A stretch of 64,000 bases of DNA, from the NCBI RefSeq assembly GCF_041886205.1, contig NZ_CP169029.1. One strand, written 5' to 3'. Under the pieces are notes generated by a model. The model was not told where the DNA came from. It was given only the letters and a program-made list of their open reading frames with translations, and did not search any database. Source of the DNA: Escherichia coli. Its GTDB lineage: Bacteria > Pseudomonadota > Gammaproteobacteria > Enterobacterales > Enterobacteriaceae. Below, piece after piece: positions 1,945 through 62,840 of this stretch (positions are counted from its first letter, which is position 1; each line of letters starts with the position of its first letter). Position numbers and translations under genes: made by a program.

Positions 1945-1986
1945 GTCATACCACTCGCCTGATTATTTTTAGCTATGTTGGATTTT

Positions 1987-2013
1987 GCCACGGTTTATAC
2001 CGTGGCTTTTTTT
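1987..2013 (+). terminator. rho-independent terminator after allE
   Basis: gccacgg/ccgtggc stem with tttata loop followed by T7 run. Confidence 0.6.
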
Positions 2014-2020
2014 GTAACAT

Positions 2021-2050: not shown

Positions 2051-2097
2051 ATGATCTCTGCAATATATAGAATTTGCGCGATTTTCAGGAAGGATAT

Positions 2098-2127
2098 AGT
2101 ACTCATGCCGCATCCGGCATGAGTACT
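2098..2127. repeat. perfect 13-bp-stem palindrome between convergent allE and glxK
   Basis: agtactcatgccg-catc-cggcatgagtact read directly. Confidence 0.6.
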
Positions 2128-2171
2128 GCGCTCTTATGCGATATACATCGCATCCACTTTAAAGGTAAGAG

Positions 2172-3317
2172 TCAGTTTTTAATTCCCTGACCTATTTTAA
2201 TGGCGCAGGCAATATTTCGCGCGCTGTTGAAGAGATTGGTTTCACCGCTGGCGAGCACTTCGGCTAAAGGTGCCAGACGTGGCAAAATGCTGAATACCGC
2301 ATCAATGCCGTACTGGTGCACCACTTCCACGCCATCACCCAATACGCCAGCAATCCCAATCACCGGTACATTAAACTGTTTCGCCACCGACGCCACACCC
2401 AGCGGCGCTTTACCGCCTGCCGTTTGCGAGTCGATGCGCCCTTCCCCGGTGATCACCAGTGCTGCCCCCTGCACCGCCTGCTCCAGGTTGACCGCCCGCA
2501 GTACAATCTCAATACCCGGTTTAATATCCGCATTGAGAAATACCGCCGCCGCAATACCCATACCGCCCGCAGCGCCGCCGCCCGCCATCTGGCAGACATT
2601 AATTTCAGTTTGCTGTTGTAAAACACGGGCGTAATTTTGCAGCCCCTGTTCCAGTTCTTCGACCATCTCCGGCGTTGCCCCTTTTTGCGGGCCAAACACC
2701 GCCGCCGCGCCGCGTGCCCCTACCAGCGGGTTATCAACGTCACATGCTACTTCAATATGGCAGTTCGCCAGACGCGGATCGCATTCCTCCATCTCAATGC
2801 TTGCCACGCGCGCTAAATTGCCGCCGTTAGCTGCCAGCACCTGACCGTCGGCATCAAGGAAACGCACACCGAGCGCCTGCGCCATGCCCATACCGCCGTC
2901 GACCGTCGCACTGCCGCCAATGCCGAGAATAATATGGCGAATGCCGTTATCCAGCGCATGACGAATTAACTCCCCCGTACCAAAACTGGAGGCCAGCAAC
3001 GGATTACGCTTTTCAGGCGCGACCAGCATCAGACCACTTGCTGCCGCCATCTCAATCACCGCTGTTTTCCCGTCGCCGTTAAGGCCATAAAAAGCATTCA
3101 CTTTTTCGCCCATCGGCCCGCAGACTTCAAGCGTCACGATGTTGCCGCCCGTCGCGGCGACCATCGCATCCACCGTTCCTTCGCCGCCATCCGCTATCGG
3201 CAAACAGATATAGTTCGCATCGGGAAAGAGGGCCGAAAACCCGGCTTTAATTGCCTGACAACATTTTTCTGCACTTAAGCTCTCTTTAAAAGAGTCTGGC
3301 GCAATGACAATCTTCAT
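2172..3317 (-). CDS. glxK: glycerate 2-kinase
   Basis: ORF starting [14 protein letters not shown] (381 aa from second Met), glycerate kinase family. Confidence 0.9.
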
Positions 3318-3338
3318 TATCAATCCTTTTTCAACAAA

Positions 3339-4640
3339 TTATTCGATGCGTTCCCACGGAATAAGGTTATCCATAAGAACAGCCAGTAAAATCCCGACCA
3401 ATAAGCCGTTACTGAGCAGAGGACGAAGCGTTAATGGAAGGTCTTGCAGATACACAGGCGGTAATGCCATTAAAAATATACCGACAAATAACGGCAATGC
3501 GAGTCGATAAATATTGCGAGCGGTAAAGGTTATTTGCTGGCTAAACACCAGCGCGGAAAAGAGTAAAGGCAGATAAGAAACCAGCATGACCGCACTACTC
3601 ACGGGTAAAGGGATACTGCAAAACAGTCGCGTGAGTGCCGGAACCAGCGCCACCAGCAGGCAAATAACGCTGCCATAAATAAACGAACGCCGCGTGTAAT
3701 CGCCAGTCTGGGTTAATAAACCAATGGATGAAACAAACGGTGAAAATGGAATTACCGCCAGCGGTACGGTTATCAGCGTCATAAATCCGGTCGCCACAAA
3801 GCTACGACGATAACGCGTATTCCCCGCGCCCTGCTGCGGATAAAAAACATCCGTGCCCCGAATCGCACCGTAGGTATTGCTGATATTTACCAGACCTGTA
3901 ATCACCGCCGTCAGAATAATTCCCGGCGACAAAGCACCGCCACTGCCGAGCGGGAACCACTGCCAGTGCAACTCACCGGAGAGCGAATGCGAAGAAGGAA
4001 AGCAAAAGTACCACAACAACCAGCCGGTTATCGTGCCGACCAGCAGGCCATAACGGGCAAAACGTTGCGGCAGGAAAATAATCATCGCCAGTACCAGGCA
4101 CATCACCGCCACCGAAAGCGCGAACGGTGGTAACTGAATTTTAAAATTTGGGTCGGCTATGCCAAACGGCAGCCCGAGCATACCTTTGAAAAAGATAGTG
4201 GTCAGCTGCGCGCCCAACATCAACATAAACAAGACCATCACCGACGGCGTAAATAACCGCGCCAGGCGATGGCCTAATCCGCTAAAACCAATCAACATCG
4301 TTAGCACGCCGGAGAGTGCAATCCCCACCGCCAGACTGGTAGCGATATCGTTGATCGGTGTCCCGCGCGATGCTTCGCCAAGGGTGATAGTAAGGATGGT
4401 TCCCCACCACAGGCCACCCGGCCCTTCCATAATAGCGCGACGATGACCGCAGAACGCCTGAGCGAAGCAGGCCAGTGCGGTAGCAAGAAAAGCATATTGC
4501 GTGAGCGTAAGCAGGCTACTTTGCGGCAACTGAAAAGCAGAAAGTAGCGTAGGAGGAACCACAACAGTGTTGCAAAAAATAAAGAAAAACCACTGAAATC
4601 CTGATAACAGGCTTTCGCGGCTGACTGCAAAATTGAACAT
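3339..4640 (-). CDS. ybbY: putative purine/xanthine-family permease (NCS2)
   Basis: 433-aa polytopic membrane ORF, synteny in the allantoin cluster. Confidence 0.85.
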   Translation of the reverse strand: MFNFAVSRESLLSGFQWFFFIFCNTVVVPPTLLSAFQLPQSSLLTLTQYAFLATALACFAQAFCGHRRAIMEGPGGLWWGTILTITLGEASRGTPINDIATSLAVGIALSGVLTMLIGFSGLGHRLARLFTPSVMVLFMLMLGAQLTTIFFKGMLGLPFGIADPNFKIQLPPFALSVAVMCLVLAMIIFLPQRFARYGLLVGTITGWLLWYFCFPSSHSLSGELHWQWFPLGSGGALSPGIILTAVITGLVNISNTYGAIRGTDVFYPQQGAGNTRYRRSFVATGFMTLITVPLAVIPFSPFVSSIGLLTQTGDYTRRSFIYGSVICLLVALVPALTRLFCSIPLPVSSAVMLVSYLPLLFSALVFSQQITFTARNIYRLALPLFVGIFLMALPPVYLQDLPLTLRPLLSNGLLVGILLAVLMDNLIPWERIE

Positions 4641-4696
4641 AAACACACCTTAACCGGAGAATGCCCGCCGCAAGGACGGGCATTGCAGGGGCCAGA

Positions 4697-6058
4697 TTAC
4701 TGCTGATGTTTAAGGATAAATTGACCTTTCGGCGCAACAGGGAAGCCCTGTTCAATGTCGTAAATCACATCACCACGTAAGATGGTTTTCGTGATACGCG
4801 CGCCAATGGTACGGCCAACATACGGGCTGACTTTGTGGCGATATTCCAGATCGTCATTGGTAAGAACATAGCTGCTATTCGGCTGAATGAAGACGAAGTC
4901 GGCATCTTTTCCTGGGGCGATACGGCCTTTTTGCTGCAGACCGAAAATATCTGCTGCGTTAGTCGCCATTAATTTGCCGAACATTGGCAGAGACATTCCG
5001 CGTTTCTGTACCGCTTCATCGAACATCACGTCCATACAGTTTTGCAGACCGGCAATACCGCCCCATGCTTCCATGATGTTGCCGGCTTTCATTTCCGGCG
5101 GGCATGGTGAGTGGTCGGAAACCAGGCAGTCGATTTCACCGTTAAACAGTTTTTCCCACATGCCTTTCTGGTTTTCCAGATCGCGGATCGGCGGTGAACA
5201 CTTCGCCAGAGTACCGATTTCTTCGAACTGATCGGTATCCAGTACAAAGTAATGCGGGCAGGATTCACAAGTAACGTCCTGACCTTCCTGACGTGCACGA
5301 GTCACTTCTTCAACGCCTTCCGGGCTGCTGATATGGCAAACGTGCAGACGGCAACCGGCAACTTTCGCCAGATACAGCACGCGGCGAATCGCTTCCACTT
5401 CGGTAAATACCGGACGCGAAGCCACATAGTCATGGGCAGTTACGCGACCTTCACGTTTCGCTTCTTCGCCCAGTGCGTCACAGATCAGCGCGTTTTCGCA
5501 GTGCACCAGCACCGGCTGCCCCAGTTCGCCCAGCTTCTGCGCACCTTTGAAGAACTGCCAGTCGTTTACATCACGGAAGTCGTTGTCGATACCGCGATCG
5601 CCACAGGTCGCAACGAAGCATTTGAAGCCGACAACGCCCACTTCATCCAGCTCATGCAGACGGTCGATGTTGTAAGACACCAGGCCACCGAGTTGTGCCG
5701 CATCGATAGTCAGCTTGCCTTTAGCGGCATCGAACTTCAGTTCAATTGAAGCGCGGTCAACCGTTGCAGGCAGCTGGTTGAGCGGCATTTCGATCATGGT
5801 GGTGATACCACCTTTTGCCGCTGCGCGAGTACCGTTTTCATAACCTTCCCAGTGGCTACGACCCGGTTCAGAAATATGGGTGTGCGCATCAACCATGCCC
5901 GGCGAAACCACCAGACCAGACGCATCCATAACTTCTTTTGCATCGCCCAGATCCTGACCGATAGCAGCAATTTTGCCGCCTTTAACGGCGATATCTACAA
6001 CGCGAGCTTCGTTTTCTAAAATAACGGTGCCGTTTTTAATGATTAAATCAAAAGACAT
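4697..6058 (-). CDS. allB: allantoinase
   Basis: [12 protein letters not shown]... amidohydrolase with DAHTH metal motif; 453 aa from internal Met. Confidence 0.9.
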
Positions 6059-6118
6059 AACAAACTCCTTGTAAAATACAGATTGGTTTTTTAACTCAAT
6101 GTTCAATATCGGGATTAA

Positions 6119-7573
6119 TTAACCTGTGACTTTTTGTTCTCCTGTTTTTTCTGCTGCTGTACGTTTTTTTAATAACGCGTAGGCAGCGAATGCGACAATA
6201 ACGCCGACAAACCATGAAACGCGAGATAAAGGCTCCATGAACGGAATAAATTTACCACCGAGAGATAAAATAACGGCGACCAAAGTTACTGAGAACGCGG
6301 TAAGATTAAAGCCGTTATCGTAATATTTGAAATCACCTGCTGCGGTATACAGTTCATCAAGATTAATTTGTCCGCGCATTACCACAAAATAATGCGCCAT
6401 CATGACACCAATTACCGGACCAAGCATTCCGCCGATAATATCGAGGAACAGATAAATACTGTCCTGATTTTCCATTAATTTCCACGGGCAGATCAGCAGG
6501 CTGATAATACTGGCAATCAGTACGCCGTTTTTATAGGTCAGTTTTGTCGGTGCAATGGCGGCAATCTGATAACCGGCCGGAATAATATTACCGGTGGCGT
6601 TAGTGGAAATGGTCGTCATCAGAATAACCAGTACCGCAAAGAACGAGGCAAACAGGCTGTCCCAACGCTGAACAATATCCAGCACGTTCCAGGTATCAGC
6701 GCCGTAGTGAATACTGGCTCCGGCAATAATACATACCCCAGCGACCGCAAACAGAATATAGGCCACAACTAAACCCAGCGTTTGCCCCAGCGCTTGCTCA
6801 CGAAACGAGTGGGCGTTTTGCGTAAAGTCGGATGCGCTCACCGCCGGTGCCGCCCAGACCGCAACTACCGCGTTAATCACTACCAGGAACAAGAATCCAC
6901 TGTTTTCTGCTTTCTGAATACCGCTCGGAATGTAGTCAAAGATTGGACCGAGCCCGACCAGCGAAATCGCCCAAATCGCCATACCGCCGAAAACGATATA
7001 GATGCACGGGTTAAGAATGGCAGTGAATTTATTTAAAACTTTGCCACCGCCAAAACCTATACCAACGTTGACCAGCCAGAAGAGTAAGAAAGTAATTAAG
7101 CCCGGTAGAGAAAGGCCTAACAGAGTGAAATCACCACCGAGAGTCAAAAATCCCGGCCAGATTTTGCCAATCAGAATCAAGCAGGCCAGTGACCCCGCGT
7201 AACATTGCAGGCCAAACCACATAATGGCAGCAATACCGCCTCTTAATAATCCGGGAAACAGTGCGCCACGTACGCCATAAGAAGCACGCAGGATCATGGC
7301 AAACGGTACGCCGTATTTACTGCCCGCAGCGCCGTTTAATACCATTACCGCGGCAATGAAAAAGGCGCTGAGGATAATTGCCAGCATAATACTAAAGGTA
7401 GACAAGCCGAGAATAAAAAAGCCGCCGACCATCACATAATTGGGAACGTTATGAACCGAACCCATCCATAAGGTAAAATAGTTAAATGTTTTCCAGGTCC
7501 GCTGGCTTTGCGTTTTCGGCAATAGATCTTCGCTATAGCCGCGTTGCTGGAATAGTTTTCTCTGATGTTCCAT
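6119..7573 (-). CDS. ybbW: allantoin permease (NCS1 family)
   Basis: 484-aa membrane transporter ORF, synteny. Confidence 0.85.
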   Translation of the reverse strand: MEHQRKLFQQRGYSEDLLPKTQSQRTWKTFNYFTLWMGSVHNVPNYVMVGGFFILGLSTFSIMLAIILSAFFIAAVMVLNGAAGSKYGVPFAMILRASYGVRGALFPGLLRGGIAAIMWFGLQCYAGSLACLILIGKIWPGFLTLGGDFTLLGLSLPGLITFLLFWLVNVGIGFGGGKVLNKFTAILNPCIYIVFGGMAIWAISLVGLGPIFDYIPSGIQKAENSGFLFLVVINAVVAVWAAPAVSASDFTQNAHSFREQALGQTLGLVVAYILFAVAGVCIIAGASIHYGADTWNVLDIVQRWDSLFASFFAVLVILMTTISTNATGNIIPAGYQIAAIAPTKLTYKNGVLIASIISLLICPWKLMENQDSIYLFLDIIGGMLGPVIGVMMAHYFVVMRGQINLDELYTAAGDFKYYDNGFNLTAFSVTLVAVILSLGGKFIPFMEPLSRVSWFVGVIVAFAAYALLKKRTAAEKTGEQKVTG

Positions 7574-12984: not shown

Positions 12985-13911
12985 ATGTTCGATCCAGAAA
13001 CCTTGCGGACTTTCATTGCGGTTGCTGAAACAGGAAGTTTTTCAAAAGCGGCAGAACGATTATGTAAAACCACGGCGACGATCAGTTATCGCATTAAACT
13101 TCTGGAAGAGAATACCGGAGTAGCGCTGTTTTTCCGTACGACTCGCAGCGTGACGTTGACAGCGGCTGGCGAGCATCTACTTTCCCAGGCCAGAGACTGG
13201 CTGAGCTGGCTGGAAAGTATGCCAAGCGAGCTGCAACAGGTGAATGATGGCGTGGAACGCCAGGTGAATATTGTCATCAACAACCTGCTCTACAACCCCC
13301 AGGCCGTCGCCCAGTTGCTGGCGTGGCTGAATGAGCGTTACCCCTTTACCCAGTTTCACATCTCCCGACAAATCTATATGGGCGTCTGGGACTCGCTATT
13401 GTACGAAGGTTTTTCGCTGGCTATCGGCGTCACGGGAACTGAGGCGCTGGCAAATACCTTTAGTCTTGATCCCTTAGGATCGGTGCAATGGCGCTTTGTC
13501 ATGGCGGCGGATCATCCGCTGGCGAACGTTGAAGAGCCGCTAACAGAAGCGCAGTTGCGGCGCTTTCCGGCGGTCAATATTGAAGACAGCGCCCGCACCT
13601 TAACCAAACGCGTCGCCTGGCGATTGCCAGGGCAAAAAGAGATTATTGTTCCCGATATGGAAACGAAAATCGCCGCCCATCTGGCGGGCGTTGGCATTGG
13701 TTTTTTGCCAAAATCGCTTTGCCAGTCAATGATCGATAATCAACAACTGGTCAGCCGGGTAATCCCAACGATGCGCCCTCCTTCGCCATTGAGTCTGGCA
13801 TGGCGCAAATTTGGCAGCGGCAAAGCGGTAGAAGATATTGTGACCTTGTTTACCCAGCGCAGGCCGGAAATCAGCGGATTTTTAGAAATTTTCGGCAACC
13901 CACGCAGTTAA
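12985..13911 (+). CDS. allS: LysR-family activator of allD operon
   Basis: 308-aa ORF with LysR HTH N-terminus, divergent from allA. Confidence 0.9.
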
Positions 13912-13964
13912 AAATCAAGTTTCCTTGCGCGTTGGCGCGTAAAATAGCGCGCAAGCTGATTTGA

Positions 13965-15074
<1,110 letters not shown>

Positions 15075-15137
15075 TGGGCGGTATTCTGAAACGGCGATTG
15101 TCGTGAGAACAGAATGGTTGCACCAGAATACAGATAT

Positions 15138-15167
15138 AAAAAAACCGACATGACAGTCGGTTTTTTT
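15138..15167. terminator. bidirectional rho-independent terminator (A7-ccgac-atgaca-gtcgg-T7)
   Basis: 5-bp GC-rich stem flanked by A-run and T-run, 64 bp downstream of selU stop. Confidence 0.6.
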
Positions 15168-15226
15168 ATTTTTTCCGCCCAAGACTTGGTGGTTCCGGGC
15201 AGAAATGAAACAGTCCTCATCTAGCA
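15138..15226 (-). ncRNA. putative antisense sRNA (candidate type I antitoxin); ends approximate
   Basis: Minus-strand TTGAAT-17bp-TATAAT promoter (15232-15260), predicted transcript contains UGCUAGAUGAGGACUG complementary to 15397-15412, ends at the bidirectional terminator. Confidence 0.35.
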
Positions 15227-15231
15227 AGTGA

Positions 15232-15260
15232 ATTATAAGTCAGGATGCCTCCATATTCAA
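15232..15260 (-). promoter_or_regulatory. candidate sigma70 promoter for the putative sRNA
   Basis: -35 ttgaat (15255-15260), 17-bp spacer, perfect -10 tataat (15232-15237) on the minus strand. Confidence 0.35.
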
Positions 15261-15376
15261 ACAGCTATGTTGGCGATACAATCCCGACGCTAGTAGTGAT
15301 ACTGCCTCAAGGGATTACCGCAGTGCGGAAAAGTACTTTTAAGTCCTGGTCAGGATACAGGTGGTGCTGATTCTGG

Positions 15377-15385
15377 TGCTCTAAT
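15377..15385 (+). promoter_or_regulatory. candidate extended -10 promoter for the small-peptide mRNA
   Basis: tgctctaat resembles TGnTATAAT; -35 is poor. Confidence 0.25.
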
Positions 15386-15485
15386 TTGGAGAGAGGCAGT
15401 CCTCATCTAGCACATGAAGAAAATCATAGTTACAGGCAACGTAAGGGTAAGCTGTGATTGTCTTTCTCCCTTAAGGGAGCAACGG

Positions 15486-15569
15486 ATGAAAACTTTTCTC
15501 GATAAAGTTCTCATCGTTCTTAAGGCGCTAATCGCGCTGCTGGAACTGATCCGTCAGTTTATTGAATAA
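15486..15569 (+). CDS. 27-aa hydrophobic peptide MKTFLDKVLIVLKALIALLELIRQFIE, DinQ/TisB-like candidate type I toxin
   Basis: ATG preceded by aagggag SD 7 nt upstream; single amphipathic helix; own hairpin terminator; in-frame upstream ATG at 15414 would give 51 aa. Confidence 0.5.
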   Translation: MKTFLDKVLIVLKALIALLELIRQFIE

Positions 15570-15587
15570 CTGAGGAAACGTAGCTAA

Positions 15588-15615
15588 GGCCGAAGGTTTA
15601 CCACCTTCGGTCTTT
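15588..15615 (+). terminator. hairpin terminator after the small ORF
   Basis: ccgaaggt-ttacc-accttcgg stem-loop followed by TCTTT. Confidence 0.5.
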
Positions 15616-15670
15616 AAAAAAACCGACATGACAGTTGGTTTCATATTTATTGCCAAAATGCACACTGTTC

Positions 15671-15771
<101 letters not shown>

Positions 15772-15786
15772 ATCTAACACCTGTCA

Positions 15787-18201
15787 TCACCCCGCAAACT
15801 GCCTGAACAGCGCCTTACCCTTAACCAGTCTCGCGCCCAGCCAGCCGCCGAAAAGCGACAGCAGCAGCGCACCGCTGCACGGCAGAACAATCCACAATCG
15901 CCAGTCTGGCTCCCACGGGAAATCAAACACTTTCGCCTGCAACACTGCCAGTGCCGTTTCCGCACCAATTGCGGCCACCAGGCCGGAAACAAACCCAAGC
16001 ATGGCGAACTCACACCACAATGTCGTGCGCAGCAGTTTTTTCCCCGCACCGAGTGTGCGCCATACCACCAGCTCCTGATGACGCTGGCGCATTCCCACCT
16101 GCACCTGTGCCAGCAACAGCAACATACCGCAGGCGGTGACCAGCACCACCATCACCTCCAGCGCCCGACTTACCTGCTCCAGCACCTGACCGACCTGTTT
16201 TAAAATCGCGCCAATATCTAACAGGCTAATGGTCGGGAACTGGCGGTTGAGTTGCGTCAACATGCCGTTGCCATTCTCCCAGCGGAAACTGGTAAGCCAG
16301 CTCTGCGGTTGCCCGTCTAATGCCCCTTCCGGGAAAATAAAATAGAAATTAGGCCGCAGACTTTCCCAGTCCACTTTGCGCAGGCTGGTCACTTTAGCGC
16401 GGAACTCCTGGGTATCGCCCATAAAAGTCACGGTATCACCGAGGGCAACGTTTAAGCGTTTCGCCAGCCCCTCTTCCATCGACACTTCATCGGCTTTTGG
16501 CGGCCAGTTACCGGCGACAATCGGATTATGATCGGGCCGCGTATTTTGCCAGGTAAGATTGAGTTCGCGATTAAGCGCCTCATCTTCATTACCTTCTGTC
16601 GGCTTATCGTTAATCGCCGTCAGCCGCGCCCGCACTACCGGATAAAATGATTCCGGGACTATATGATGTTCCGCGAGGAACGCTTTTAGCGGTGCTACCT
16701 GTTCTGTGGCGATGTTAATTAAAAAGTAGTTCGGGCTTTCTGGCGGTAGCTGCTGCTGCCAGCGGTCGAGCAGATCGCCACGCAATACCAGCAACAGCGC
16801 CAGCAGCATAAAGGAGAGCGAAAATGCCGAAAGCTGACTTAACGTTGACCACGGCTGACGTAACAGGCGGCTAACCGCCAGGCGCAGAGGCAGCGATTTC
16901 AGCGTCATGCGGCGAAGTACATTCAGCAGCATCCAGCCCAGCACACCGCACAGCAAAGCCAGTACTACCGCGCCAGCCAGCACCGCCCAAAGCAGCATGC
17001 TGCCACCCATTAATCCGGCGAGCAGCAGCACAACCACCACACTGACAATCGGCAGATAAAACTTCAGCGGCCAGACGTTCGCTACCACATCATTACGTAA
17101 TACGCGTAAAGGCTGCGTTGCCAGCAACAAGCGATATGGTCGTAGCCCCACCAGCAGCGAGATGACCGTCATGGTGCCCAGCGCCCACAACCACGGCCAG
17201 AGGCTGGCTGGCGGTAGTGCAGCAGGCAGAACGGGCTTGAGCAGCACCATCAACACGTTTTCGAACAACAGGCCTATGGCCCCACCGGTAACGGCTGAAA
17301 GCGCCAGCACCATCAACCACTGACCGACGATTAGCTTACGCAGTTGCGCTCGCCCTGCCCCCAGCGTTTTGAGGATCGCCACCAGATCGTAGCGACTGCG
17401 ACAGTAATGATTCATCGCCACCGCCACCGCTGCCACTGCCAGCAGCAAGGTCAGAAGCGCCGAAAGCAGCAGGAACTGCTGCGAGCGTTCCATCGATCGC
17501 CCCAGCGCGCCTTCGTCCTGTTCCAGACCGTACCAGCGTTGTTCGGGTTTAAGCTGGGGTAACAACCATTTCTCATAGCCGTCGAGCTGGTTCTCGTTGC
17601 CGCCGAATTTATAACGCCAGGTGACCCGACTCCCCGGCTGCACGGCTCCGGTTTTATCGACATCCGCCAGATTCATCATCAGACGCGGAGCCATCTGGAA
17701 GGGGTTAAAACCAGAATCCGGTTCCTGAATCACTTCTCCGGCAATCCGCAAGGTGGCATCGCCCACGTCGATGGTGTCGCCTGTTTTCAGGTTAAGCAGC
17801 GCCATCAGGCGTGGGGCCAGCAATACGCTGCCCGCCTGCGGTTTCAGGCCAGGGGGATTAGTTTGCAGATCGCCATACATCGGGTAGATATCATCCACCG
17901 CTTTGACGTTCGCCAGCTGCGGTGTGTCGCCTGCAAATGTCATGGTGGCGAAAGTCAGCTGCTTGCCGACTTTCAGGCCGCGCTTTTGCGCTTCCTCCAG
18001 CCACGCTTGCGGCACTTCGCGCGAACTGCGCAACGCCCGATCGCCCGCCATAAACTCACGGCTTTGCTGGCTTAAGCCCTTCTCCATGCGATCGCTGATA
18101 TTGCCCAGCGCCAGCACGCAGGCCACCGCCAGGCTTAGCGCCAGCCAGACAATTAATAGCGACGGCGAACGCCATTCGCGCCAGAACCAACGTGCAATCA
18201 T
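15787..18201 (-). CDS. ybbP: ABC transporter permease (FtsX-like)
   Basis: 804-aa ORF with two FtsX-type membrane domains, overlaps ybbA by 4 bp. Confidence 0.88.
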   Translation of the reverse strand: MIARWFWREWRSPSLLIVWLALSLAVACVLALGNISDRMEKGLSQQSREFMAGDRALRSSREVPQAWLEEAQKRGLKVGKQLTFATMTFAGDTPQLANVKAVDDIYPMYGDLQTNPPGLKPQAGSVLLAPRLMALLNLKTGDTIDVGDATLRIAGEVIQEPDSGFNPFQMAPRLMMNLADVDKTGAVQPGSRVTWRYKFGGNENQLDGYEKWLLPQLKPEQRWYGLEQDEGALGRSMERSQQFLLLSALLTLLLAVAAVAVAMNHYCRSRYDLVAILKTLGAGRAQLRKLIVGQWLMVLALSAVTGGAIGLLFENVLMVLLKPVLPAALPPASLWPWLWALGTMTVISLLVGLRPYRLLLATQPLRVLRNDVVANVWPLKFYLPIVSVVVVLLLAGLMGGSMLLWAVLAGAVVLALLCGVLGWMLLNVLRRMTLKSLPLRLAVSRLLRQPWSTLSQLSAFSLSFMLLALLLVLRGDLLDRWQQQLPPESPNYFLINIATEQVAPLKAFLAEHHIVPESFYPVVRARLTAINDKPTEGNEDEALNRELNLTWQNTRPDHNPIVAGNWPPKADEVSMEEGLAKRLNVALGDTVTFMGDTQEFRAKVTSLRKVDWESLRPNFYFIFPEGALDGQPQSWLTSFRWENGNGMLTQLNRQFPTISLLDIGAILKQVGQVLEQVSRALEVMVVLVTACGMLLLLAQVQVGMRQRHQELVVWRTLGAGKKLLRTTLWCEFAMLGFVSGLVAAIGAETALAVLQAKVFDFPWEPDWRLWIVLPCSGALLLSLFGGWLGARLVKGKALFRQFAG

Positions 18202-18884
18202 GCTTCCTCCTGCAACTGCCCGTTCACCAGCCGTAAGCAGCGGTCGCAGCGTGCCGCCAGTTGCAGGTCGTGGGTCACCATAATCAACGTGGTGCCATGT
18301 TCACGGTTGAGGGAAAACAGCAGGTCGGCAATTTTATCGCCCGTCTGGCGGTCAAGGTTGCCGGTGGGTTCGTCGGCAAACAGCACATCAGGTCGACCAT
18401 TAAAGGCTCGTGCCAGCGCCACTCGTTGCTGTTCACCGCCGGAAAGCTGTGCCGGAAGATGATCCAGACGTTTACCCAGCCCTAACTGTTCGAGCAACGC
18501 TTTCGCCCCGTTACGACTTTCCGCGCTACTCTCACCGCGCAGCAGAGCCGGAAGCTCGACGTTTTCCAGCGCGTTAAGGGTAGGAATTAACATAAATGAC
18601 TGAAAAACAAAGCCGACGTGCTTCGCGCGCAACTTTGCCCGCGCTTCTTCGTCCATATTATGTAGCGGTTGTCCCACCAGACTCACTTCGCCACTGCTGC
18701 CGTCATCAAGCCCGGCGAGGATCGCCAGCAAGGTTGACTTACCCGATCCCGACTCGCCCACCAGTGCGATGGTCTCGCCACGTTTGACAACCAGCTCAAC
18801 TCCGGTGAGGATGGAGAGTTCATGCTCCCCCTGACCGACGGACTTCTTAAGATGATGAACTTCAACAATGTTTTCCGCTGGCAT
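18198..18884 (-). CDS. ybbA: ABC transporter ATP-binding protein
   Basis: Walker A GESGSGKST, signature LSGGEQQRVALARA, 228 aa. Confidence 0.9.
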   Translation of the reverse strand: MPAENIVEVHHLKKSVGQGEHELSILTGVELVVKRGETIALVGESGSGKSTLLAILAGLDDGSSGEVSLVGQPLHNMDEEARAKLRAKHVGFVFQSFMLIPTLNALENVELPALLRGESSAESRNGAKALLEQLGLGKRLDHLPAQLSGGEQQRVALARAFNGRPDVLFADEPTGNLDRQTGDKIADLLFSLNREHGTTLIMVTHDLQLAARCDRCLRLVNGQLQEEA

Positions 18885-29749: not shown

Positions 29750-30038
<289 letters not shown>

Positions 30039-30536: not shown

Positions 30537-31331
30537 ATGGATCTGTTGTACCGGGTAAAAACGCTTTGGGCCGCGCTGCGCGGTAATCATTACACCTGGC
30601 CTGCCATCGATATCACCCTCCCCGGCAATCGCCATTTTCATCTGATTGGCAGTATTCATATGGGTAGCCACGATATGGCTCCCCTGCCCACCCGTTTGCT
30701 CAAAAAGCTCAAAAACGCCGATGCGCTGATCGTCGAGGCGGATGTTTCCACCAGTGATACGCCTTTTGCTAATTTGCCTGCCTGCGAGGCGCTGGAAGAG
30801 CGCATTAGCGAGGAGCAACTCCAAAACCTGCAGCACATTAGCCAGGAGATGGGCATTTCTCCCTCGCTCTTTTCTACCCAACCGCTGTGGCAAATCGCGA
30901 TGGTTCTTCAGGCGACGCAGGCACAAAAACTGGGGCTGCGGGCAGAATACGGTATCGATTACCAGCTATTGCAGGCGGCGAAGCAACAACATAAACCCGT
31001 GATTGAACTGGAAGGGGCTGAAAACCAGATTGCCATGTTGCTCCAGCTCCCTGACAAAGGACTGGCGCTGCTGGACGATACGCTGACCCACTGGCATACC
31101 AACGCACGGTTGCTGCAACAAATGATGAGCTGGTGGCTGAATGCACCGCCGCAAAATAATGATATAACGCTGCCCAATACGTTCAGTCAGTCGCTGTACG
31201 ATGTGCTGATGCATCAGCGAAATCTCGCCTGGCGGGATAAATTACGCGCCATGCCGCCGGGGCGATATGTGGTCGCGGTCGGTGCACTACACCTGTATGG
31301 AGAAGGGAATTTGCCGCAAATGTTGCGCTAA
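30537..31331 (+). CDS. ybaP: TraB-family protein
   Basis: 264-aa ORF, synteny. Confidence 0.85.
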   Translation: MDLLYRVKTLWAALRGNHYTWPAIDITLPGNRHFHLIGSIHMGSHDMAPLPTRLLKKLKNADALIVEADVSTSDTPFANLPACEALEERISEEQLQNLQHISQEMGISPSLFSTQPLWQIAMVLQATQAQKLGLRAEYGIDYQLLQAAKQQHKPVIELEGAENQIAMLLQLPDKGLALLDDTLTHWHTNARLLQQMMSWWLNAPPQNNDITLPNTFSQSLYDVLMHQRNLAWRDKLRAMPPGRYVVAVGALHLYGEGNLPQMLR

Positions 31332-31413
31332 AAAAATGGCCAATATCGCTATTGGCCCGTCAAAGAGGAATTTCATTTTTTTATTATTATGCCGTCACTT
31401 TAAGCGACGGTGT
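31331..31413 (-). ncRNA. chiX: sRNA ChiX (MicM/SroB)
   Basis: Minus-strand sequence acaccgtcgcttaaagtgacggcataataataaaaaaatgaaattcctctttgacgggccaatagcgatattggcc + U-run matches ChiX from memory; terminator hairpin ggccaata/tattggcc. Confidence 0.85.
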
Positions 31414-37088: not shown

Positions 37089-37173
37089 GTAGGCATGATA
37101 AGACGCGCCAGCGTCGCATCAGGCATCGAGAGCCAAATGCCAGATGCGGCGTGAACGCCTTATCTGGCCTACG
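37089..37173. repeat. BIME (REP pair)
   Basis: gtaggcatgataagacgcg...catcaggca and tgccagatgcggcgtgaacgccttatctggcctac. Confidence 0.75.
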
Positions 37174-44488: not shown

Positions 44489-46420
44489 TCAAATGGGGCG
44501 GATACTTTCTTCATCCAGCTCCGCATCGAAAAACCGACGCAGGGTCTGAATATTATTATCCGCAATAATGGACTCGCGCGCCTGCGCAAGTTTTTCTTCG
44601 TATATCGCCTGACGCCACTCCAGCGGCGTACGCACCGCGGGATTATCATCTTCAACGATAGTCAGTTCAACCGTTGAACCTTTTAACATGCTCAACGCTT
44701 CAGCCAGTTTTTGCTGTGCACCGCGGTTGTTCAAATGCCGCTGAGAGGAGCGCAAATGCAGACATACTGCGTTGTCGCTCTCCTCTTTCCAGGCATTTAA
44801 CGCCACCTGTTCGACCAGTTTTGGTAGCGAAAGTTGGCTCACCTGTGCCGCCCACGGGTCGCGCTCAATGGCTTCTGCCGCCAGCTTCGCCGCCAGTTCC
44901 GGCGTTTTTTCATGTTCCAGCGCTTTTTTCAGCGCCTTCGGCGTGGCGACCACTTCTTTTTGCTGCATCACTGGAGTGGTAGCCTTCCAGCGATACGCTT
45001 CTTTTTTGGCTGGCGCTTTTTCCAGCGCCGATGGCACCGGACGCGCCTGAACGCGATCGGTGACCGAAGCCAGTCTTTCCAGCGCAGCGTTATTCACCGG
45101 CCGCGCGCGGGTAGCGGCTGCCGGTTCACTCTTTTTTGCTTTGGTTGCTCCCTGCACGCGCTGCAACTGCTGGCGCGCCGCCAGCACCTGGCTGGTGGTT
45201 TCCGGGAGCGGTACAGTCGGTGCCTGCTGCGGCGCTGATTGCGGTTGCGGCGGCACCTGGGTTGGCGTCATTACTGCCGTTGGCGCGACGGGCGCAAAGG
45301 ACTGGCGTGGCACTTCTGGCTCAGGCAGAGGCATACGTGGATGGAACGCCAGCGCGCGCAGCAGCGTCATCTCAACGCCCATGCGGCGGTCCGGCGCATA
45401 CGGTAATTCTTTGCGACCAATCAACAGCGTCTGATAGTAAAGCTGAATATCCGTCGGCGGTATGGTGCGCGCCAGTTCACGCATCCGCAGCTCAATGGCG
45501 GCCATGTCGTTGCCAAGTGCAGCAGGCGAAAGTTGTACCATCGCAATACGATGCAACAGGCCGAGCATTTCCACCAGCAACGCTTCCCACTCGATACCAC
45601 GGGCAGCGGCTTCATTAATCAGCGCCATTACGCGCTCGCCGTTGGCCTCGACCATCGCTTCAACCAGCGACAGCGCCTGATCGTCATCAAGCGTACCCAG
45701 CATCGCACTGACTGCCTGGGTTGAAACCTGGCCGTCACCGCTGGCAATCGCCTGGTCGGTCAGACTTAAGGCATCTCGCAGGCTGCCTTCAGCGGCGCGC
45801 GCCAGCAATTGCAACGCCCGCGGCTCGTGAGCGATATGTTCTTCGTTGAGGATGTGCTCAAGTTGATGGCGAATTTGCTCGACATCCAGCGCCTTGAGAT
45901 GAAATTGCAAACAGCGCGACAAAATCGTCACCGGCAATTTCTGTGGATCGGTCGTCGCCAGCAGAAACTTAACGTGCTCCGGCGGCTCTTCAAGGGTTTT
46001 TAACAGTGCGTTAAAGCTGTGGCGCGACAGCATATGCACTTCGTCGATCAGATAAACTTTGAAACGACCACGCGCCGGAGCGTACTGGACGTTATCCAGC
46101 AGGTCGCGGGTATCTTCAACTTTGGTGCGCGAGGCGGCGTCGATTTCAATCAGATCGACAAAGCGCCCCTGCTCGATTTCACGACAGTTATCGCACACGC
46201 CGCACGGCGTCGCGGTAATGCCGGTTTCGCAGTTTAGCCCCTTCGCCAGCAGTCGGGCGATAGAGGTTTTTCCGACGCCACGGGTGCCGGAAAAAAGATA
46301 AGCATGATGAATACGCCCTAACGACAAGCCGTTCGCCAGTGCGGTCAGCACATGTTCCTGGCCGACGACGTCAGCAAAGGTTTGTGGGCGCCATTTTCGG
46401 GCTAAGACCTGATAACTCAT
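44489..46420 (-). CDS. dnaX: DNA polymerase III tau/gamma subunits
   Basis: 643-aa ORF with AAA+ Walker A GTRGVGKT. Confidence 0.95.
   Translation of the reverse strand: MSYQVLARKWRPQTFADVVGQEHVLTALANGLSLGRIHHAYLFSGTRGVGKTSIARLLAKGLNCETGITATPCGVCDNCREIEQGRFVDLIEIDAASRTKVEDTRDLLDNVQYAPARGRFKVYLIDEVHMLSRHSFNALLKTLEEPPEHVKFLLATTDPQKLPVTILSRCLQFHLKALDVEQIRHQLEHILNEEHIAHEPRALQLLARAAEGSLRDALSLTDQAIASGDGQVSTQAVSAMLGTLDDDQALSLVEAMVEANGERVMALINEAAARGIEWEALLVEMLGLLHRIAMVQLSPAALGNDMAAIELRMRELARTIPPTDIQLYYQTLLIGRKELPYAPDRRMGVEMTLLRALAFHPRMPLPEPEVPRQSFAPVAPTAVMTPTQVPPQPQSAPQQAPTVPLPETTSQVLAARQQLQRVQGATKAKKSEPAAATRARPVNNAALERLASVTDRVQARPVPSALEKAPAKKEAYRWKATTPVMQQKEVVATPKALKKALEHEKTPELAAKLAAEAIERDPWAAQVSQLSLPKLVEQVALNAWKEESDNAVCLHLRSSQRHLNNRGAQQKLAEALSMLKGSTVELTIVEDDNPAVRTPLEWRQAIYEEKLAQARESIIADNNIQTLRRFFDAELDEESIRPI
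45129..45135 (-). promoter_or_regulatory. dnaX programmed -1 frameshift site (A AAA AAG)
   Basis: Plus-strand cttttttt = minus-strand AAAAAAG; -1 frame reads GAG then UGA. Confidence 0.8.
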
Positions 46421-62726: not shown

Positions 62727-62840
62727 GGGTGGGGGCCCTGCCAGCTACATCCCGGCACACGCGTCATCTGCCTTGGCTGCTTCCTTCCGGACCTGACCTG
62801 GTAAACAGAGTAGCGTTGCGGGAGAACCAACAGAGCCCCC
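62727..62840 (-). ncRNA. ffs: 4.5S RNA (SRP RNA)
   Basis: Reverse complement reads GGGGGCUCUGUUGGUUCUCCCGCAACGC...GGCAGGGCCCCCACCC, 114 nt, matching 4.5S RNA from memory. Confidence 0.95.

What the first reader, a model, noticed from the sequence alone, without database searches (positions are those of the whole stretch)
15211..15412. Perfect 16-nt direct repeat implying a divergent antisense sRNA targeting the peptide mRNA leader
The 16-mer cagtcctcatctagca occurs at 15211-15226 and again at 15397-15412. A minus-strand promoter (ttgaat-17bp-tataat, -10 at 15232-15237) would start a leftward transcript of about 85-90 nt that carries the reverse complement of copy 1 at its 5' end and stops at the bidirectional terminator at 15138-15167. 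That RNA would pair perfectly over 16 nt with copy 2, which lies about 75-90 nt upstream of the peptide start codon and just downstream of a candidate extended -10 element (tgctctaat, 15377-15385). This is the geometry of IstR-1/tisB and AgrB/dinQ, where a divergent sRNA pairs with the toxin mRNA leader. I found no LexA box, so SOS control is not supported.
Basis: inference. Interest (0 to 1): 0.75.

Follow-up and report, generated by a model that had tools for sequence, protein, structure and literature searches.

The report
Second DinQ/AgrB toxin-antitoxin locus
The repeated 16-mer is real and marks a second, LexA-box-free copy of the known E. coli DinQ/AgrB type I toxin-antitoxin module, in which a small antisense RNA pairs with the leader of a toxic-peptide mRNA; it is an ordinary member of a known family.

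Summary
The 16-mer CAGTCCTCATCTAGCA is exact at 15211-15226 and 15397-15412 and is not a chance repeat. It lies in the mnmH(selU)-ybbP intergenic region of E. coli.

Copy 1 is the 5' end of a minus-strand sRNA gene (15136-15224). This gene passes Rfam's AgrB threshold at 53.6 bits against a cut-off of 40. Copy 2 lies in the 5' UTR of a 27-aa peptide gene (15486-15569). The peptide passes NCBIfam's DinQ model, and PGAP already annotates it as dinQ.

Across 27 distinct family loci from chromosomes and plasmids, the sRNA 5' end and the leader target co-vary. 93.7% of cells pair and 19 of 24 pairs show changes on both sides.

Two corrections follow from homology:
- The toxin mRNA most likely starts near 15289 (-10 TACAAT 15277-15282, about 325 nt), not at the "tgctctaat" motif.
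- The sRNA probably starts at 15224, giving 14 perfect pairs within a 22-bp duplex over 23 nt.

About 24% of complete E. coli genomes carry the module, and several alleles have the toxin disrupted.

Verdict: a new, uncharacterised member of a known kind, of low to moderate interest.

The parts
15136..15224 (-). AgrB-like antitoxin sRNA gene (~89 nt). It has a single-stranded 5' tail, a stem-loop with a CCACCAA loop, and a terminator hairpin.
   Evidence: Rfam RF02891 AgrB, 53.6 bits (gathering score 40), model positions 1-84 of 84. Predicted fold. The same element sits at the same relative position in 7 plasmid dql loci and in K-12.
15232..15260 (-). sRNA promoter: -35 TTGAAT (15260..15255), 17-nt spacer, -10 TATAAT (15237..15232).
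   Evidence: It is the only sigma-70-like site reported in 15000-15850, with 10 of 12 matches. A -10-like hexamer follows the repeat at the same distance in all family loci.
15136..15169 (.). Bidirectional intrinsic terminator, shared by mnmH (+) and the sRNA (-).
   Evidence: Terminator scan on both strands, 14-bp stem. Inverted repeat I1, 100% complementary.
15211..15226 (+). 16-mer copy 1. Its reverse complement is the 5' end of the sRNA. Positions 15225-15226 lie upstream of the homology-inferred +1.
   Evidence: The +1 at 15224 is inferred from the Rfam alignment and the K-12 agrB start.
15254..15282 (+). Inferred toxin-mRNA promoter: weak -35 TATTCA (15254-15259) and -10 TACAAT (15277-15282). 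It stands back-to-back with the sRNA -35 and overlaps it.
   Evidence: The -10 aligns with the conserved (G)TATAAT of plasmid dql loci and with the -10/LexA-box region of K-12 dinQ. This is inferred by homology, not tested.
15289..15614 (+). Inferred full-length toxin mRNA (~326 nt), from +1 G15289 to the terminator.
   Evidence: Alignment to K-12 dinQ +1 (GTTAGCTC...). Terminator hairpin I5, 15586-15614.
15289..15308 (+). 5'-terminal 'lock' sequence of the mRNA. It is predicted to pair with the sRNA target region (15393-15411) in the unprocessed transcript.
   Evidence: In the minimum-free-energy fold of 15289-15614, the target's mean P(unpaired) is 0.21 in the full-length form and 0.50 after removing the first 44 nt. 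This is analogous to the sequence 1:2 pairing of dinQ (PMC5066626).
15341..15382 (+). Family-invariant leader block AAGTCCTG...GGTGGTGC...TGCTCT, a stem-loop with a GUGGUG loop.
   Evidence: Invariant columns in alignment A2. A pattern built from this block retrieved 25 genuine family loci from species genomes.
15388..15412 (+). sRNA target in the 5' UTR. The 16-mer copy 2 is 15397-15412. The predicted duplex with sRNA nt 1-23 spans 15388-15410: 22 bp including 4 G.U, with one A.A mismatch.
   Evidence: RNAduplex gives -31.5 kcal/mol for the first 22 nt of the sRNA, against -13.2 +/- 2.3 for 500 shuffles (minimum -24.1).
15466..15479 (+). Shine-Dalgarno hairpin CUCCC-UUAA-GGGAG. The SD AAGGGAG (15473-15479) lies 6 nt before the ATG.
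   Evidence: Direct reading of the sequence, inverted repeat I8 and the fold. The hairpin is conserved, with covarying flanking pairs, in A2.
15486..15569 (+). 27-aa toxin ORF MKTFLDKVLIVLKALIALLELIRQFIE (DinQ paralogue). An in-frame upstream ATG at 15414 would give 51 aa.
   Evidence: ORF list. PGAP CDS 'dinQ' WP_349808740.1 at the identical position in strain VE-T9. NCBIfam NF041472, 40.9 bits against a cut-off of 30. 15 of 19 residues identical to DinQ.
15586..15614 (+). Toxin mRNA terminator hairpin.
   Evidence: Inverted repeat I5. Conserved in A2.
15615..15654 (.). Degenerate second copy (83% over 40 nt) of the sRNA terminator region. With 15137-15176 it brackets the module.
   Evidence: Direct repeat D1, spacing 478.

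Best explanation
The region is a complete type I toxin-antitoxin module of the DinQ/AgrB family. It is a second, paralogous copy lying between mnmH(selU) and ybbP, in addition to the canonical arsR-gor locus.

Inferred mechanism:
1. A strong constitutive promoter drives an ~89-nt AgrB-like sRNA leftward.
2. A weaker divergent promoter drives a ~325-nt mRNA for a 27-aa hydrophobic DinQ-like peptide.
3. The single-stranded 5' tail of the sRNA pairs with the mRNA leader 75-100 nt upstream of the start codon. The duplex is 14 perfect pairs extended to 22 bp.
4. By analogy with AgrB/dinQ, this pairing prevents formation of the translatable mRNA form and exposes the duplex to RNase III.
5. The primary transcript is probably self-locked. 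Its 5' end folds onto the same target sequence and the SD sits in a hairpin, so it needs 5' processing to become both translatable and sRNA-sensitive.
6. Unlike canonical dinQ, there is no LexA operator, so expression is not expected to be SOS-controlled.

What is shown here: sequence homology of all parts, the conserved architecture, and covariation of the pairing. What is inferred: the transcripts themselves, processing, toxicity and repression.
For: - Rfam AgrB match above the gathering score, full length.
- NCBIfam DinQ match above its cut-off. PGAP annotates the ORF as dinQ in identical loci.
- The 5' UTR aligns with K-12 dinQ and plasmid dql leaders, including the -10, the invariant blocks, the SD hairpin and the terminator.
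- Every relative examined has an AgrB-family sRNA gene upstream on the opposite strand, and a locus-specific direct repeat linking that gene to the leader.
- Intermolecular covariation over 27 distinct loci: 93.7% of cells paired against 41-43% for slid controls, 19 of 24 pairs changed on both sides, 0 of 500 shuffles reaching the observed score.
- Cognate duplexes are the most stable in the cross-matrix: -31.5 kcal/mol here, against -14.8 for K-12 AgrB on this leader.
- The predicted fold shows the 5'-end lock on the target and SD sequestration.
- Experimental precedent exists for the family: dinQ/agrB (PMC3567139, PMC5066626) and plasmid DqlB/AgrB (PMC12365149, PMC12317039).
- The module is 99.3% identical between this window and Escherichia sp. 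E1V33, while the flanking genes are 94.9-97.0% identical.
Against: - No transcript, toxicity or repression data exist for this locus, and none could be generated here.
- Complementarity is shorter than in the canonical pair (about 22 bp with 4 G.U, against 30 of 31). The distal half of the canonical duplex has degenerated.
- K-12 AgrA, with 25 of 31 complementarity, does not protect against DinQ (PMC3567139), so reduced pairing can mean loss of function.
- The toxin promoter has a weak -35 and was not picked up by the consensus scan.
- A sizeable minority of carrier genomes have toxin-disrupting alleles, so the toxin may be dispensable or decaying.
- In the covariation test, the sRNA-side copy was chosen as the best ungapped match, which biases the count slightly toward pairing.
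Confidence: 0.85

Rival explanations
1. The module is a decaying relic. The sRNA and/or the toxin are no longer functional, as AgrA is in K-12, and the 16-mer is residual homology from the duplication that created the family architecture rather than an actively used pairing site.
For: - The distal half of the canonical ~34-nt duplex has degenerated here.
- Toxin-disrupting alleles are common. The 108-bp deletion removing the SD and start codon is the most likely reading for 138 genomes. A 186-bp deletion removes both promoters in at least 3 genomes. An IS element splits the toxin promoter in one isolate.
- AgrA shows that family sRNAs can lose function (PMC3567139).
Against: - About 85% of carriers keep the full module (1124 of 1325 genomes cover at least 80% of it).
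- Both promoters, both terminators, the SD hairpin and the ORF are intact here.
- The contiguous 18-bp 5' duplex is unlike AgrA's interrupted pairing.
- The module is far more conserved than its flanks between Escherichia lineages: 4 differences in 566 nt, against 3-5% divergence in the flanking genes.
Confidence: 0.1
2. One reading: the toxin mRNA starts just upstream of copy 2, from the extended -10-like TGCTCTAAT (15377-15385), giving a ~220-nt mRNA with the target at its extreme 5' end.
For: - TGnTCTAAT resembles an extended -10.
- The GG-to-AA change that creates it is specific to this sub-lineage.
- A transcript starting at 15392 would have a moderately accessible target (P unpaired 0.48).
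Against: - The hexamer lacks the critical -11 A, and the scan did not report it.
- The motif lies inside the family-invariant leader block that is transcribed in K-12 dinQ (PMC3567139).
- The conserved -10 of all relatives aligns to 15277-15282.
- The sequence 15289-15308 forms the family-typical 5' lock on the target. That feature would be pointless if it were not transcribed.
Confidence: 0.08
3. The sRNA's main role is in trans, on the canonical dinQ mRNA elsewhere in the genome or on other targets, rather than on the adjacent peptide mRNA.
For: Through G.U pairs, the sRNA's first 22 nt can pair with the homologous site of K-12-type dinQ at -25.1 kcal/mol. This is more stable than all 500 shuffles tested against the sRNA's own leader (minimum -24.1) and similar to AgrA on dinQ (-23.0).
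Against: - The cognate duplex is stronger (-31.5), and the cognate pair co-varies across the family.
- AgrA, at a similar energy, does not protect against DinQ (PMC3567139).
- Canonical dinQ target sequences differ between lineages, so any cross-pairing depends on the allele.
Confidence: 0.05
4. The 16-mer is a chance repeat or a pure recombination scar with no RNA-level meaning.
For: The repeat is used as a recombination substrate: strain PE164 has lost exactly the 186 bp between the two copies.
Against: - 0 of 100 shuffles give two copies.
- The equivalent repeat exists at the same two positions in every family locus, with matched sequence changes.
Confidence: 0.01

Closest known systems
dinQ-agrAB type I toxin-antitoxin locus of E. 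coli K-12 (arsR-gor intergenic region; Weel-Sneve et al. 2013, Kristiansen et al. 2016)
   Same: - The toxin is homologous: 27 aa, 15 of 19 aligned residues identical, and it passes NCBIfam DinQ.
- The sRNA is homologous: it passes Rfam AgrB.
- The arrangement is the same divergent, non-overlapping one, with the sRNA 5' end complementary to the leader about 80-100 nt upstream of the start codon.
- The leader blocks, SD hairpin, 5'-end lock and terminators are conserved.
   Different: - The chromosomal site is different (mnmH-ybbP).
- There is a single agr gene rather than an agrA/agrB tandem.
- There is no LexA operator.
- The duplex is shorter, about 22 bp with 4 G.U, against 30 of 31.
- The specificity sequence is different, and K-12 AgrB is predicted not to pair with this leader (-14.8 kcal/mol).
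- The start codon is ATG rather than GTG.
dql (dinQ-like) genes and plasmid DqlB/AgrB addiction modules (Kristiansen 2016; pOXA-48 and IncX3 studies 2025, PMC12365149, PMC12317039)
   Same: - There is no LexA box, and a single AgrB-like sRNA lies about 180-245 nt upstream.
- The leader architecture is the same.
- The C-terminal motif ELIRQFI(D/E) is shared with DqlB.
   Different: - The peptide lacks the insertion that makes DqlB 31 aa long, and it scores below the NCBIfam DqlB cut-off (24.5 against 35).
- It is chromosomal and sits at a fixed site in about 24% of E. coli genomes, rather than on plasmids.
- Only 3 of 72,556 plasmid-collection records carry it, and the one listed among them is a 1.2-Mb record.
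- The plasmid members have been tested experimentally; this one has not.
tisB/istR-1 and zorO/orzO type I systems
   Same: In all of these a divergently encoded trans-acting sRNA pairs with a long 5' UTR of a small membrane-toxin mRNA that needs processing to become active. This is a functional analogy.
   Different: - No sequence homology was detected here. The only Rfam hit to OrzO-P is a sub-threshold match to the terminator (24.1 bits against 60).
- tisB is LexA-controlled, whereas this locus has no LexA box.

Membership tests
DinQ/AgrB type I toxin-antitoxin family | Small hydrophobic single-helix toxin homologous to DinQ | tested here: met
   NCBIfam NF041472 toxin_DinQ, 40.9 bits against a curated cut-off of 30. 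BLASTP against K-12 DinQ gives 15 of 19 identities, E = 3e-8. PGAP annotates it as dinQ.
DinQ/AgrB type I toxin-antitoxin family | AgrB-type antisense sRNA (5' tail, stem-loop, intrinsic terminator) | tested here: met
   Rfam RF02891, 53.6 bits against a gathering score of 40, full model length, at 15136-15224 on the minus strand.
DinQ/AgrB type I toxin-antitoxin family | sRNA encoded divergently upstream without overlap, with its 5' end complementary to the toxin 5' UTR | tested here: met
   Exact 16-mer repeat with spacing 186. Predicted 22-bp duplex at -31.5 kcal/mol. Covariation of this pairing across 27 loci.
DinQ/AgrB type I toxin-antitoxin family | Conserved dinQ-type 5' UTR: invariant leader blocks, SD-sequestering hairpin, and a 5' sequence that pairs with the sRNA target | tested here: met
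   Alignment A2, pattern recovery of family loci and the predicted fold. The structural switch itself is only predicted.
DinQ/AgrB type I toxin-antitoxin family | Toxicity of the peptide and its neutralisation by the sRNA | not testable with these tools
   This has been shown for K-12 dinQ/agrB (PMC3567139) and for plasmid dqlB/agrB (PMC12365149, PMC12317039), but not for this locus.
Canonical dinQ (SOS regulon member, 'damage-inducible') | LexA operator at the toxin promoter | tested here: not met
   There is no CTG-N10-CAG in 15075-15786. The best 20-mer matches the LexA consensus at only 11 of 20 positions, against 14-15 of 20 in all canonical arsR-gor-type loci. The locus should therefore not be filed as the SOS gene dinQ itself, whatever the PGAP product name says.
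Canonical dinQ (SOS regulon member, 'damage-inducible') | Location in the arsR-gor intergenic region with tandem agrA and agrB | tested here: not met
   The locus lies between mnmH and ybbP and has one agr gene. Carrier genomes have the canonical locus as well: 2 places in VE-T9, and both L031 and L032 in E1V33.
DqlB (NCBIfam NF041473) | Score above the DqlB model cut-off (31-aa peptide with the RAVAALANA-type insertion) | tested here: not met
   24.5 bits against a cut-off of 35. The insertion is absent in the alignment.

The most novel reading that the evidence does not exclude
This LexA-independent chromosomal DinQ paralogue may not be insulated from the canonical SOS-controlled dinQ-agrAB locus.

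- Its sRNA carries G where AgrB carries A, so it can pair through G.U with some canonical dinQ alleles, whereas AgrB cannot pair with its mRNA. This would give a one-way, hierarchical cross-regulation between two toxin-antitoxin loci in about a quarter of E. coli strains.
- The direct repeats that the pairing requires also act as a built-in deletion route, which repeatedly disarms the module.
Probability: 0.12. Interest if true: 0.45.

Novelty: new member of a known kind. Interest (0 to 1): 0.25.

Why it matters
The result adds a strain-variable DinQ-type membrane toxin with its own dedicated antisense RNA to the E. coli type I toxin-antitoxin inventory. About 24% of complete genomes carry it, and K-12 does not.

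It shows that the PGAP product name 'damage-inducible' is probably wrong for this copy, because there is no LexA box. It also shows that the AgrB-like partner is left unannotated in the RefSeq records examined.

For the field it is a natural experiment in three respects:
- a shorter 5'-tail-only duplex;
- specificity that is predicted to be largely orthogonal to the canonical locus;
- several independent toxin-disrupting alleles.

It does not reveal a new principle.

Tried and rejected
- **Chance repeat.** Rejected by shuffles and by family-wide conservation of the repeat's positions.
- **ZorO/OrzO or another type I family.** Only a sub-threshold Rfam OrzO-P hit on the terminator, so rejected.
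- **K-12 as an 'empty site'.** This was meant to define the insertion boundaries. It failed because K-12 has the RhsD island between ybbP and selU, and homology breaks at the selU stop codon.
- **Within-species covariation.** Not informative. Nearly all E. coli copies are at least 99% identical, so I used the wider family instead.
- **Counting deletion alleles with junction-spanning queries.** Only partly successful, because the tool joins split pieces. The 108-bp deletion count (138 genomes with at least 99% identity) is the most likely reading. For the 186-bp deletion, only 3 single-piece exact matches can be asserted.
- **Supplementary files of Kristiansen 2016.** They are not held, so I could not check whether this exact locus is one of their 14 dql genes or belongs to 'dqlA'.
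- **Literature search for dinQ plus ybbP.** Nothing relevant was found.
- **Pattern hits outside the family.** Two Streptomyces hits were chance matches and were excluded.
- **Technical failures.** One repeat finder failed on a strand argument, and two scripts failed on missing files.

Full report
**Observation**

The 16-mer CAGTCCTCATCTAGCA is present exactly twice in the window, at 15211-15226 and 15397-15412. No further copies appear with up to two mismatches, and none of 100 dinucleotide shuffles gave two copies. The repeat extends to 22 nt at 91% identity (15211-15232 and 15397-15418).

The minus-strand promoter TTGAAT-17-TATAAT was the only sigma-70-like site found by the scan in 15000-15850. 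The hairpin at 15136-15169 scores as a terminator on both strands.

**Context**

The window is E. coli. The repeat lies in the 712-bp spacer between mnmH/selU (13980-15074, +) and ybbP (15787-18201, -).

A 27-aa ORF, MKTFLDKVLIVLKALIALLELIRQFIE (15486-15569), follows copy 2 by 74 nt. In strain VE-T9, which is 100% identical over the spacer, PGAP annotates this ORF as 'damage-inducible type I toxin DinQ'. The exact peptide carries that name as a MULTISPECIES RefSeq protein.

**What the parts are**

- **sRNA.** The predicted leftward RNA is a full-length match to Rfam AgrB (RF02891) at 15136-15224 on the minus strand. It scores 53.6 bits against a gathering score of 40, in both the local scan and the whole-window scan.
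- **Toxin.** The peptide scores 40.9 bits on NCBIfam toxin_DinQ (cut-off 30) and stays below the DqlB cut-off (24.5 against 35). It shares 15 of 19 aligned residues with K-12 DinQ.
- **Leader and surroundings.** I aligned the locus with the K-12 dinQ-agrAB locus and with seven plasmid dql loci. The whole architecture is conserved: the sRNA terminator and stem-loop, the sRNA 5' end, the sRNA -10, the toxin -10, the invariant leader blocks AAGTCCTG / GGTGGTGC / TGCTCT, the target, a GACAGGCA block, the SD hairpin, the ORF and the terminator.
- **Relatives.** Every one of those relatives has an AgrB-family hit above threshold on the opposite strand upstream of the toxin gene.

**Is the pairing real?**

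A leader pattern retrieved 25 genuine family loci from species-representative genomes. These came from Escherichia, Citrobacter, Hafnia, Photorhabdus, Pantoea, Cedecea, Kosakonia, Leminorella and Buttiauxella, plus a few contigs filed under unrelated taxa. Two Streptomyces hits were chance matches.

In every true locus, the sequence just downstream of TGCTCT recurs 179-245 nt upstream (430 nt in K-12, where agrA intervenes). There it lies next to the AgrB-type stem-loop and is followed by a -10 on the other strand. The repeated sequence differs from locus to locus but matches within each locus.

I scored this as an intermolecular helix of 24 pairs over 27 distinct loci:

| Measure | Observed | Control |
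|---|---|---|
| Cells forming a standard pair | 93.7% | 41-43% with partners slid by 1-3 columns |
| Pairs with a change on both sides | 19 of 24 | 9-10 with slid partners |
| Covariation score | 0.619 | 0.24 in shuffles |
| Shuffles reaching the observed score | 0 of 500 | |

One caveat applies. The sRNA-side copy was chosen as the best ungapped match, which biases the count slightly, although its position is fixed by the flanking conserved elements.

The repeat is conserved in the E. coli copies examined, and it varies co-ordinately across the family.

**The duplex here**

By homology with the K-12 agrB start, mapped by primer extension in PMC3567139 and annotated in RefSeq, the sRNA starts at 15224. 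On that basis 14 of the 16 repeat bases are transcribed.

Pairing then continues with 4 more pairs (2 of them G.U), one A.A mismatch, and 4 more pairs (2 G.U). The total is 22 bp over 23 nt, on mRNA positions 15388-15410.

| Pair (first 22 nt of sRNA, against a 5' UTR) | RNAduplex energy (kcal/mol) |
|---|---|
| This sRNA on its own leader | -31.5 |
| 500 shuffles of the 22-mer on this leader | -13.2 +/- 2.3 (minimum -24.1) |
| K-12 AgrB on K-12 dinQ | -35.8 |
| K-12 AgrB on this leader | -14.8 |
| This sRNA on K-12 dinQ | -25.1 |
| K-12 AgrA on K-12 dinQ | -23.0 |

In the canonical pair, the duplex also consumes the 5' arm of the sRNA stem-loop. That distal half has degenerated in this locus.

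In the cross-matrix of sRNA tails against leaders, cognate or same-specificity pairs are the strongest.

The motif TGCTCTAAT (15377-15385) is unlikely to be the toxin promoter.
- Its hexamer has C at -11, and the scan did not report it.
- It sits inside the family-invariant TGCTCT block, which is part of the transcribed leader in K-12.

The -10 conserved in the relatives, (G)TATAAT, aligns with TACAAT at 15277-15282. In K-12 the same position holds the -10 overlapped by the LexA box. The K-12 +1 (G of GTTAGCTC) aligns with G15289. This gives a ~326-nt mRNA, like the ~330-nt dinQ-a transcript.

The predicted fold of 15289-15614 supports this start.
- The first 20 nt pair with the sRNA target region (15393-15411). 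This is the equivalent of the dinQ 'sequence 1:2' lock (PMC5066626).
- The SD is buried in the hairpin CUCCC-UUAA-GGGAG.
- Removing the first 44 nt raises the target's mean unpaired probability from 0.21 to 0.50.

These are predictions, not measurements.

**LexA**

There is no CTG-N10-CAG anywhere in the spacer. Across the family, the operator TACTGTATGATTATCCAGTT (14-15 of 20 matches to the consensus) occurs only in the canonical arsR-gor-type loci of Escherichia and Citrobacter. The window and all dql-type loci lack it.

The product name 'damage-inducible' is probably inappropriate for this paralogue.

**Distribution and alleles**

- 1325 of 5426 complete E. coli genomes carry the module, always on the chromosome. 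1124 of them have at least 80% of it in one piece.
- Carriers also keep the canonical locus.
- K-12 lacks the module and has the RhsD island between ybbP and selU instead.
- Strain PE164 and at least two others have lost exactly the 186 bp between the two 16-mers, leaving one hybrid copy and no promoters.
- A 108-bp deletion runs between AGTCCTCATC in copy 2 and AGTTCTCATC in the ORF and removes the SD and start codon. It appears to be present in 138 genomes.
- In isolate 362 an IS element separates the -35 from the -10 of the toxin promoter, leaving the sRNA promoter intact.
- In Escherichia sp. E1V33 the module sits at the same site and is 99.3% identical (sRNA 100%), while mnmH is 94.9% and ybbP 97.0% identical. 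This points to strong constraint or to recent exchange.

**Comparison with the literature**

The dinQ-agrAB system was characterised in 2013 (PMC3567139). Its RNA switch and the 'dql' (dinQ-like) gene family on chromosomes and plasmids were described in 2016 (PMC5066626). T1TAdb later predicted antisense RNAs for these loci (PMC8594479). Plasmid DqlB/AgrB modules were shown to be toxic and to stabilise plasmids in 2025 (PMC12365149, PMC12317039).

I found no paper dealing with the mnmH-ybbP copy. I could not check whether it is among the 14 dql genes of the 2016 paper, because the supplements are not held.

**Verdict**

I file it as a new, experimentally uncharacterised member of a known kind.

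It differs from the canonical locus in several ways: its site, a single sRNA gene, no LexA operator, a shorter 5'-tail-only duplex, and a different specificity sequence.

Confidence that it is a DinQ/AgrB-family module whose sRNA pairs with the leader is 0.85. Interest is 0.25.

Noticed in passing
window 15211-15412; L006 (strain PE164) 1507-1596: The two 16-mer copies act as a recombination substrate. PE164, E105 and F2_81 have lost exactly the intervening 186 bp. One hybrid copy remains, and both divergent promoters are gone.
   Followed up: partly
window 15397-15515; L005, L042: A 108-bp deletion runs between AGTCCTCATC (copy 2) and a third, 80%-similar copy inside the ORF (AGTTCTCATC, 15505-15515). 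It removes the SD and start codon and appears to be present in 138 complete genomes. Some of these are still annotated 'dinQ' by PGAP.
   Followed up: partly
L041 (E. coli isolate 362) 1397-2443, equivalent to window ~15266: An IS element (integrase core domain protein) is inserted between the -35 and the -10 of the inferred toxin promoter, with ACAGCT at both junctions. The sRNA gene and its promoter are left intact.
   Followed up: partly
window 15137-15176 and 15615-15654: The sRNA terminator region is repeated (83% over 40 nt) immediately after the toxin terminator, so the ~478-bp module is bracketed by direct repeats. This could be an insertion scar or the remnant of a second tandem unit. 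It is unresolved because no empty site was found.
   Followed up: partly
L031 (Escherichia sp. E1V33) 2061-6459 against window 13900-18300: The module is 99.3% identical (4 differences in 566 nt, sRNA identical), while the flanking mnmH and ybbP are 94.9% and 97.0% identical. This suggests strong constraint or recent lateral exchange of the spacer.
   Followed up: partly
L003/L004 (K-12 MG1655 519.5-534 kb): In K-12 the ybbP-selU spacer holds the RhsD element (rhsD, ybbC, ylbH, ybbD, ylbI, ylbG) in place of the toxin-antitoxin module. The spacer is therefore a variable hotspot.
   Followed up: partly
L002, L014, L018, L020, L026, L027, L032 (canonical dinQ loci): The canonical arsR-gor dinQ locus itself has several specificity alleles of the target/AgrB pair, for example GAGAGAGTTCTTATCTAA, GAGATAGTCGTCATCTAA and GAGAATGCCATTATCTAA. 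The 'non-functional' AgrA of K-12 (GAGATAGCCATCATCTAA) closely resembles the sRNA-gene copy that best matches the dinQ leader in other lineages.
   Followed up: no
window 15136-15224 (-) against K-12 dinQ leader: Cross-pairing is predicted to be asymmetric. This sRNA on K-12 dinQ gives -25.1 kcal/mol through G.U pairs, whereas K-12 AgrB on this leader gives only -14.8. K-12 AgrA on this leader gives -20.5.
   Followed up: partly
window 15188-15194 (sRNA loop CCACCAA) and 15359-15365 (mRNA loop GGUGGUG): The loop of the sRNA stem-loop (ACCACC) is complementary to the loop of the conserved leader hairpin (GGUGGU). Both are near-invariant in the family, so they could form a kissing contact. The Kosakonia locus L036 is an exception. 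Because both sequences are invariant, no covariation test is possible.
   Followed up: no
L016, L017 (Haemophilus sputorum), L018, L030 (Lachnospiraceae MAGs), L033 (Chryseobacterium sp.): dinQ/dql loci typical of Enterobacteriaceae appear on short contigs assigned to unrelated taxa. L016 is identical in the target region to an IncX1 plasmid locus. These are probably plasmid contamination or mis-binned contigs rather than true hosts.
   Followed up: no
window 15667-15749: REP-type palindromes lie between the module and ybbP, giving sub-threshold Rfam naRNA4 and ES036 hits. They explain the thousands of partial BLAST hits of the spacer throughout E. coli genomes.
   Followed up: no
window 1951-2017, 29854-30032, 31330-31413, 37092-37169, 45092-45156, 62736-62832: Other Rfam families pass their gathering scores in the window: STnc480, naRNA4 (REP) copies, sroB, the dnaX frameshift element and the SRP RNA. 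All are expected for this part of the E. coli chromosome.
   Followed up: no
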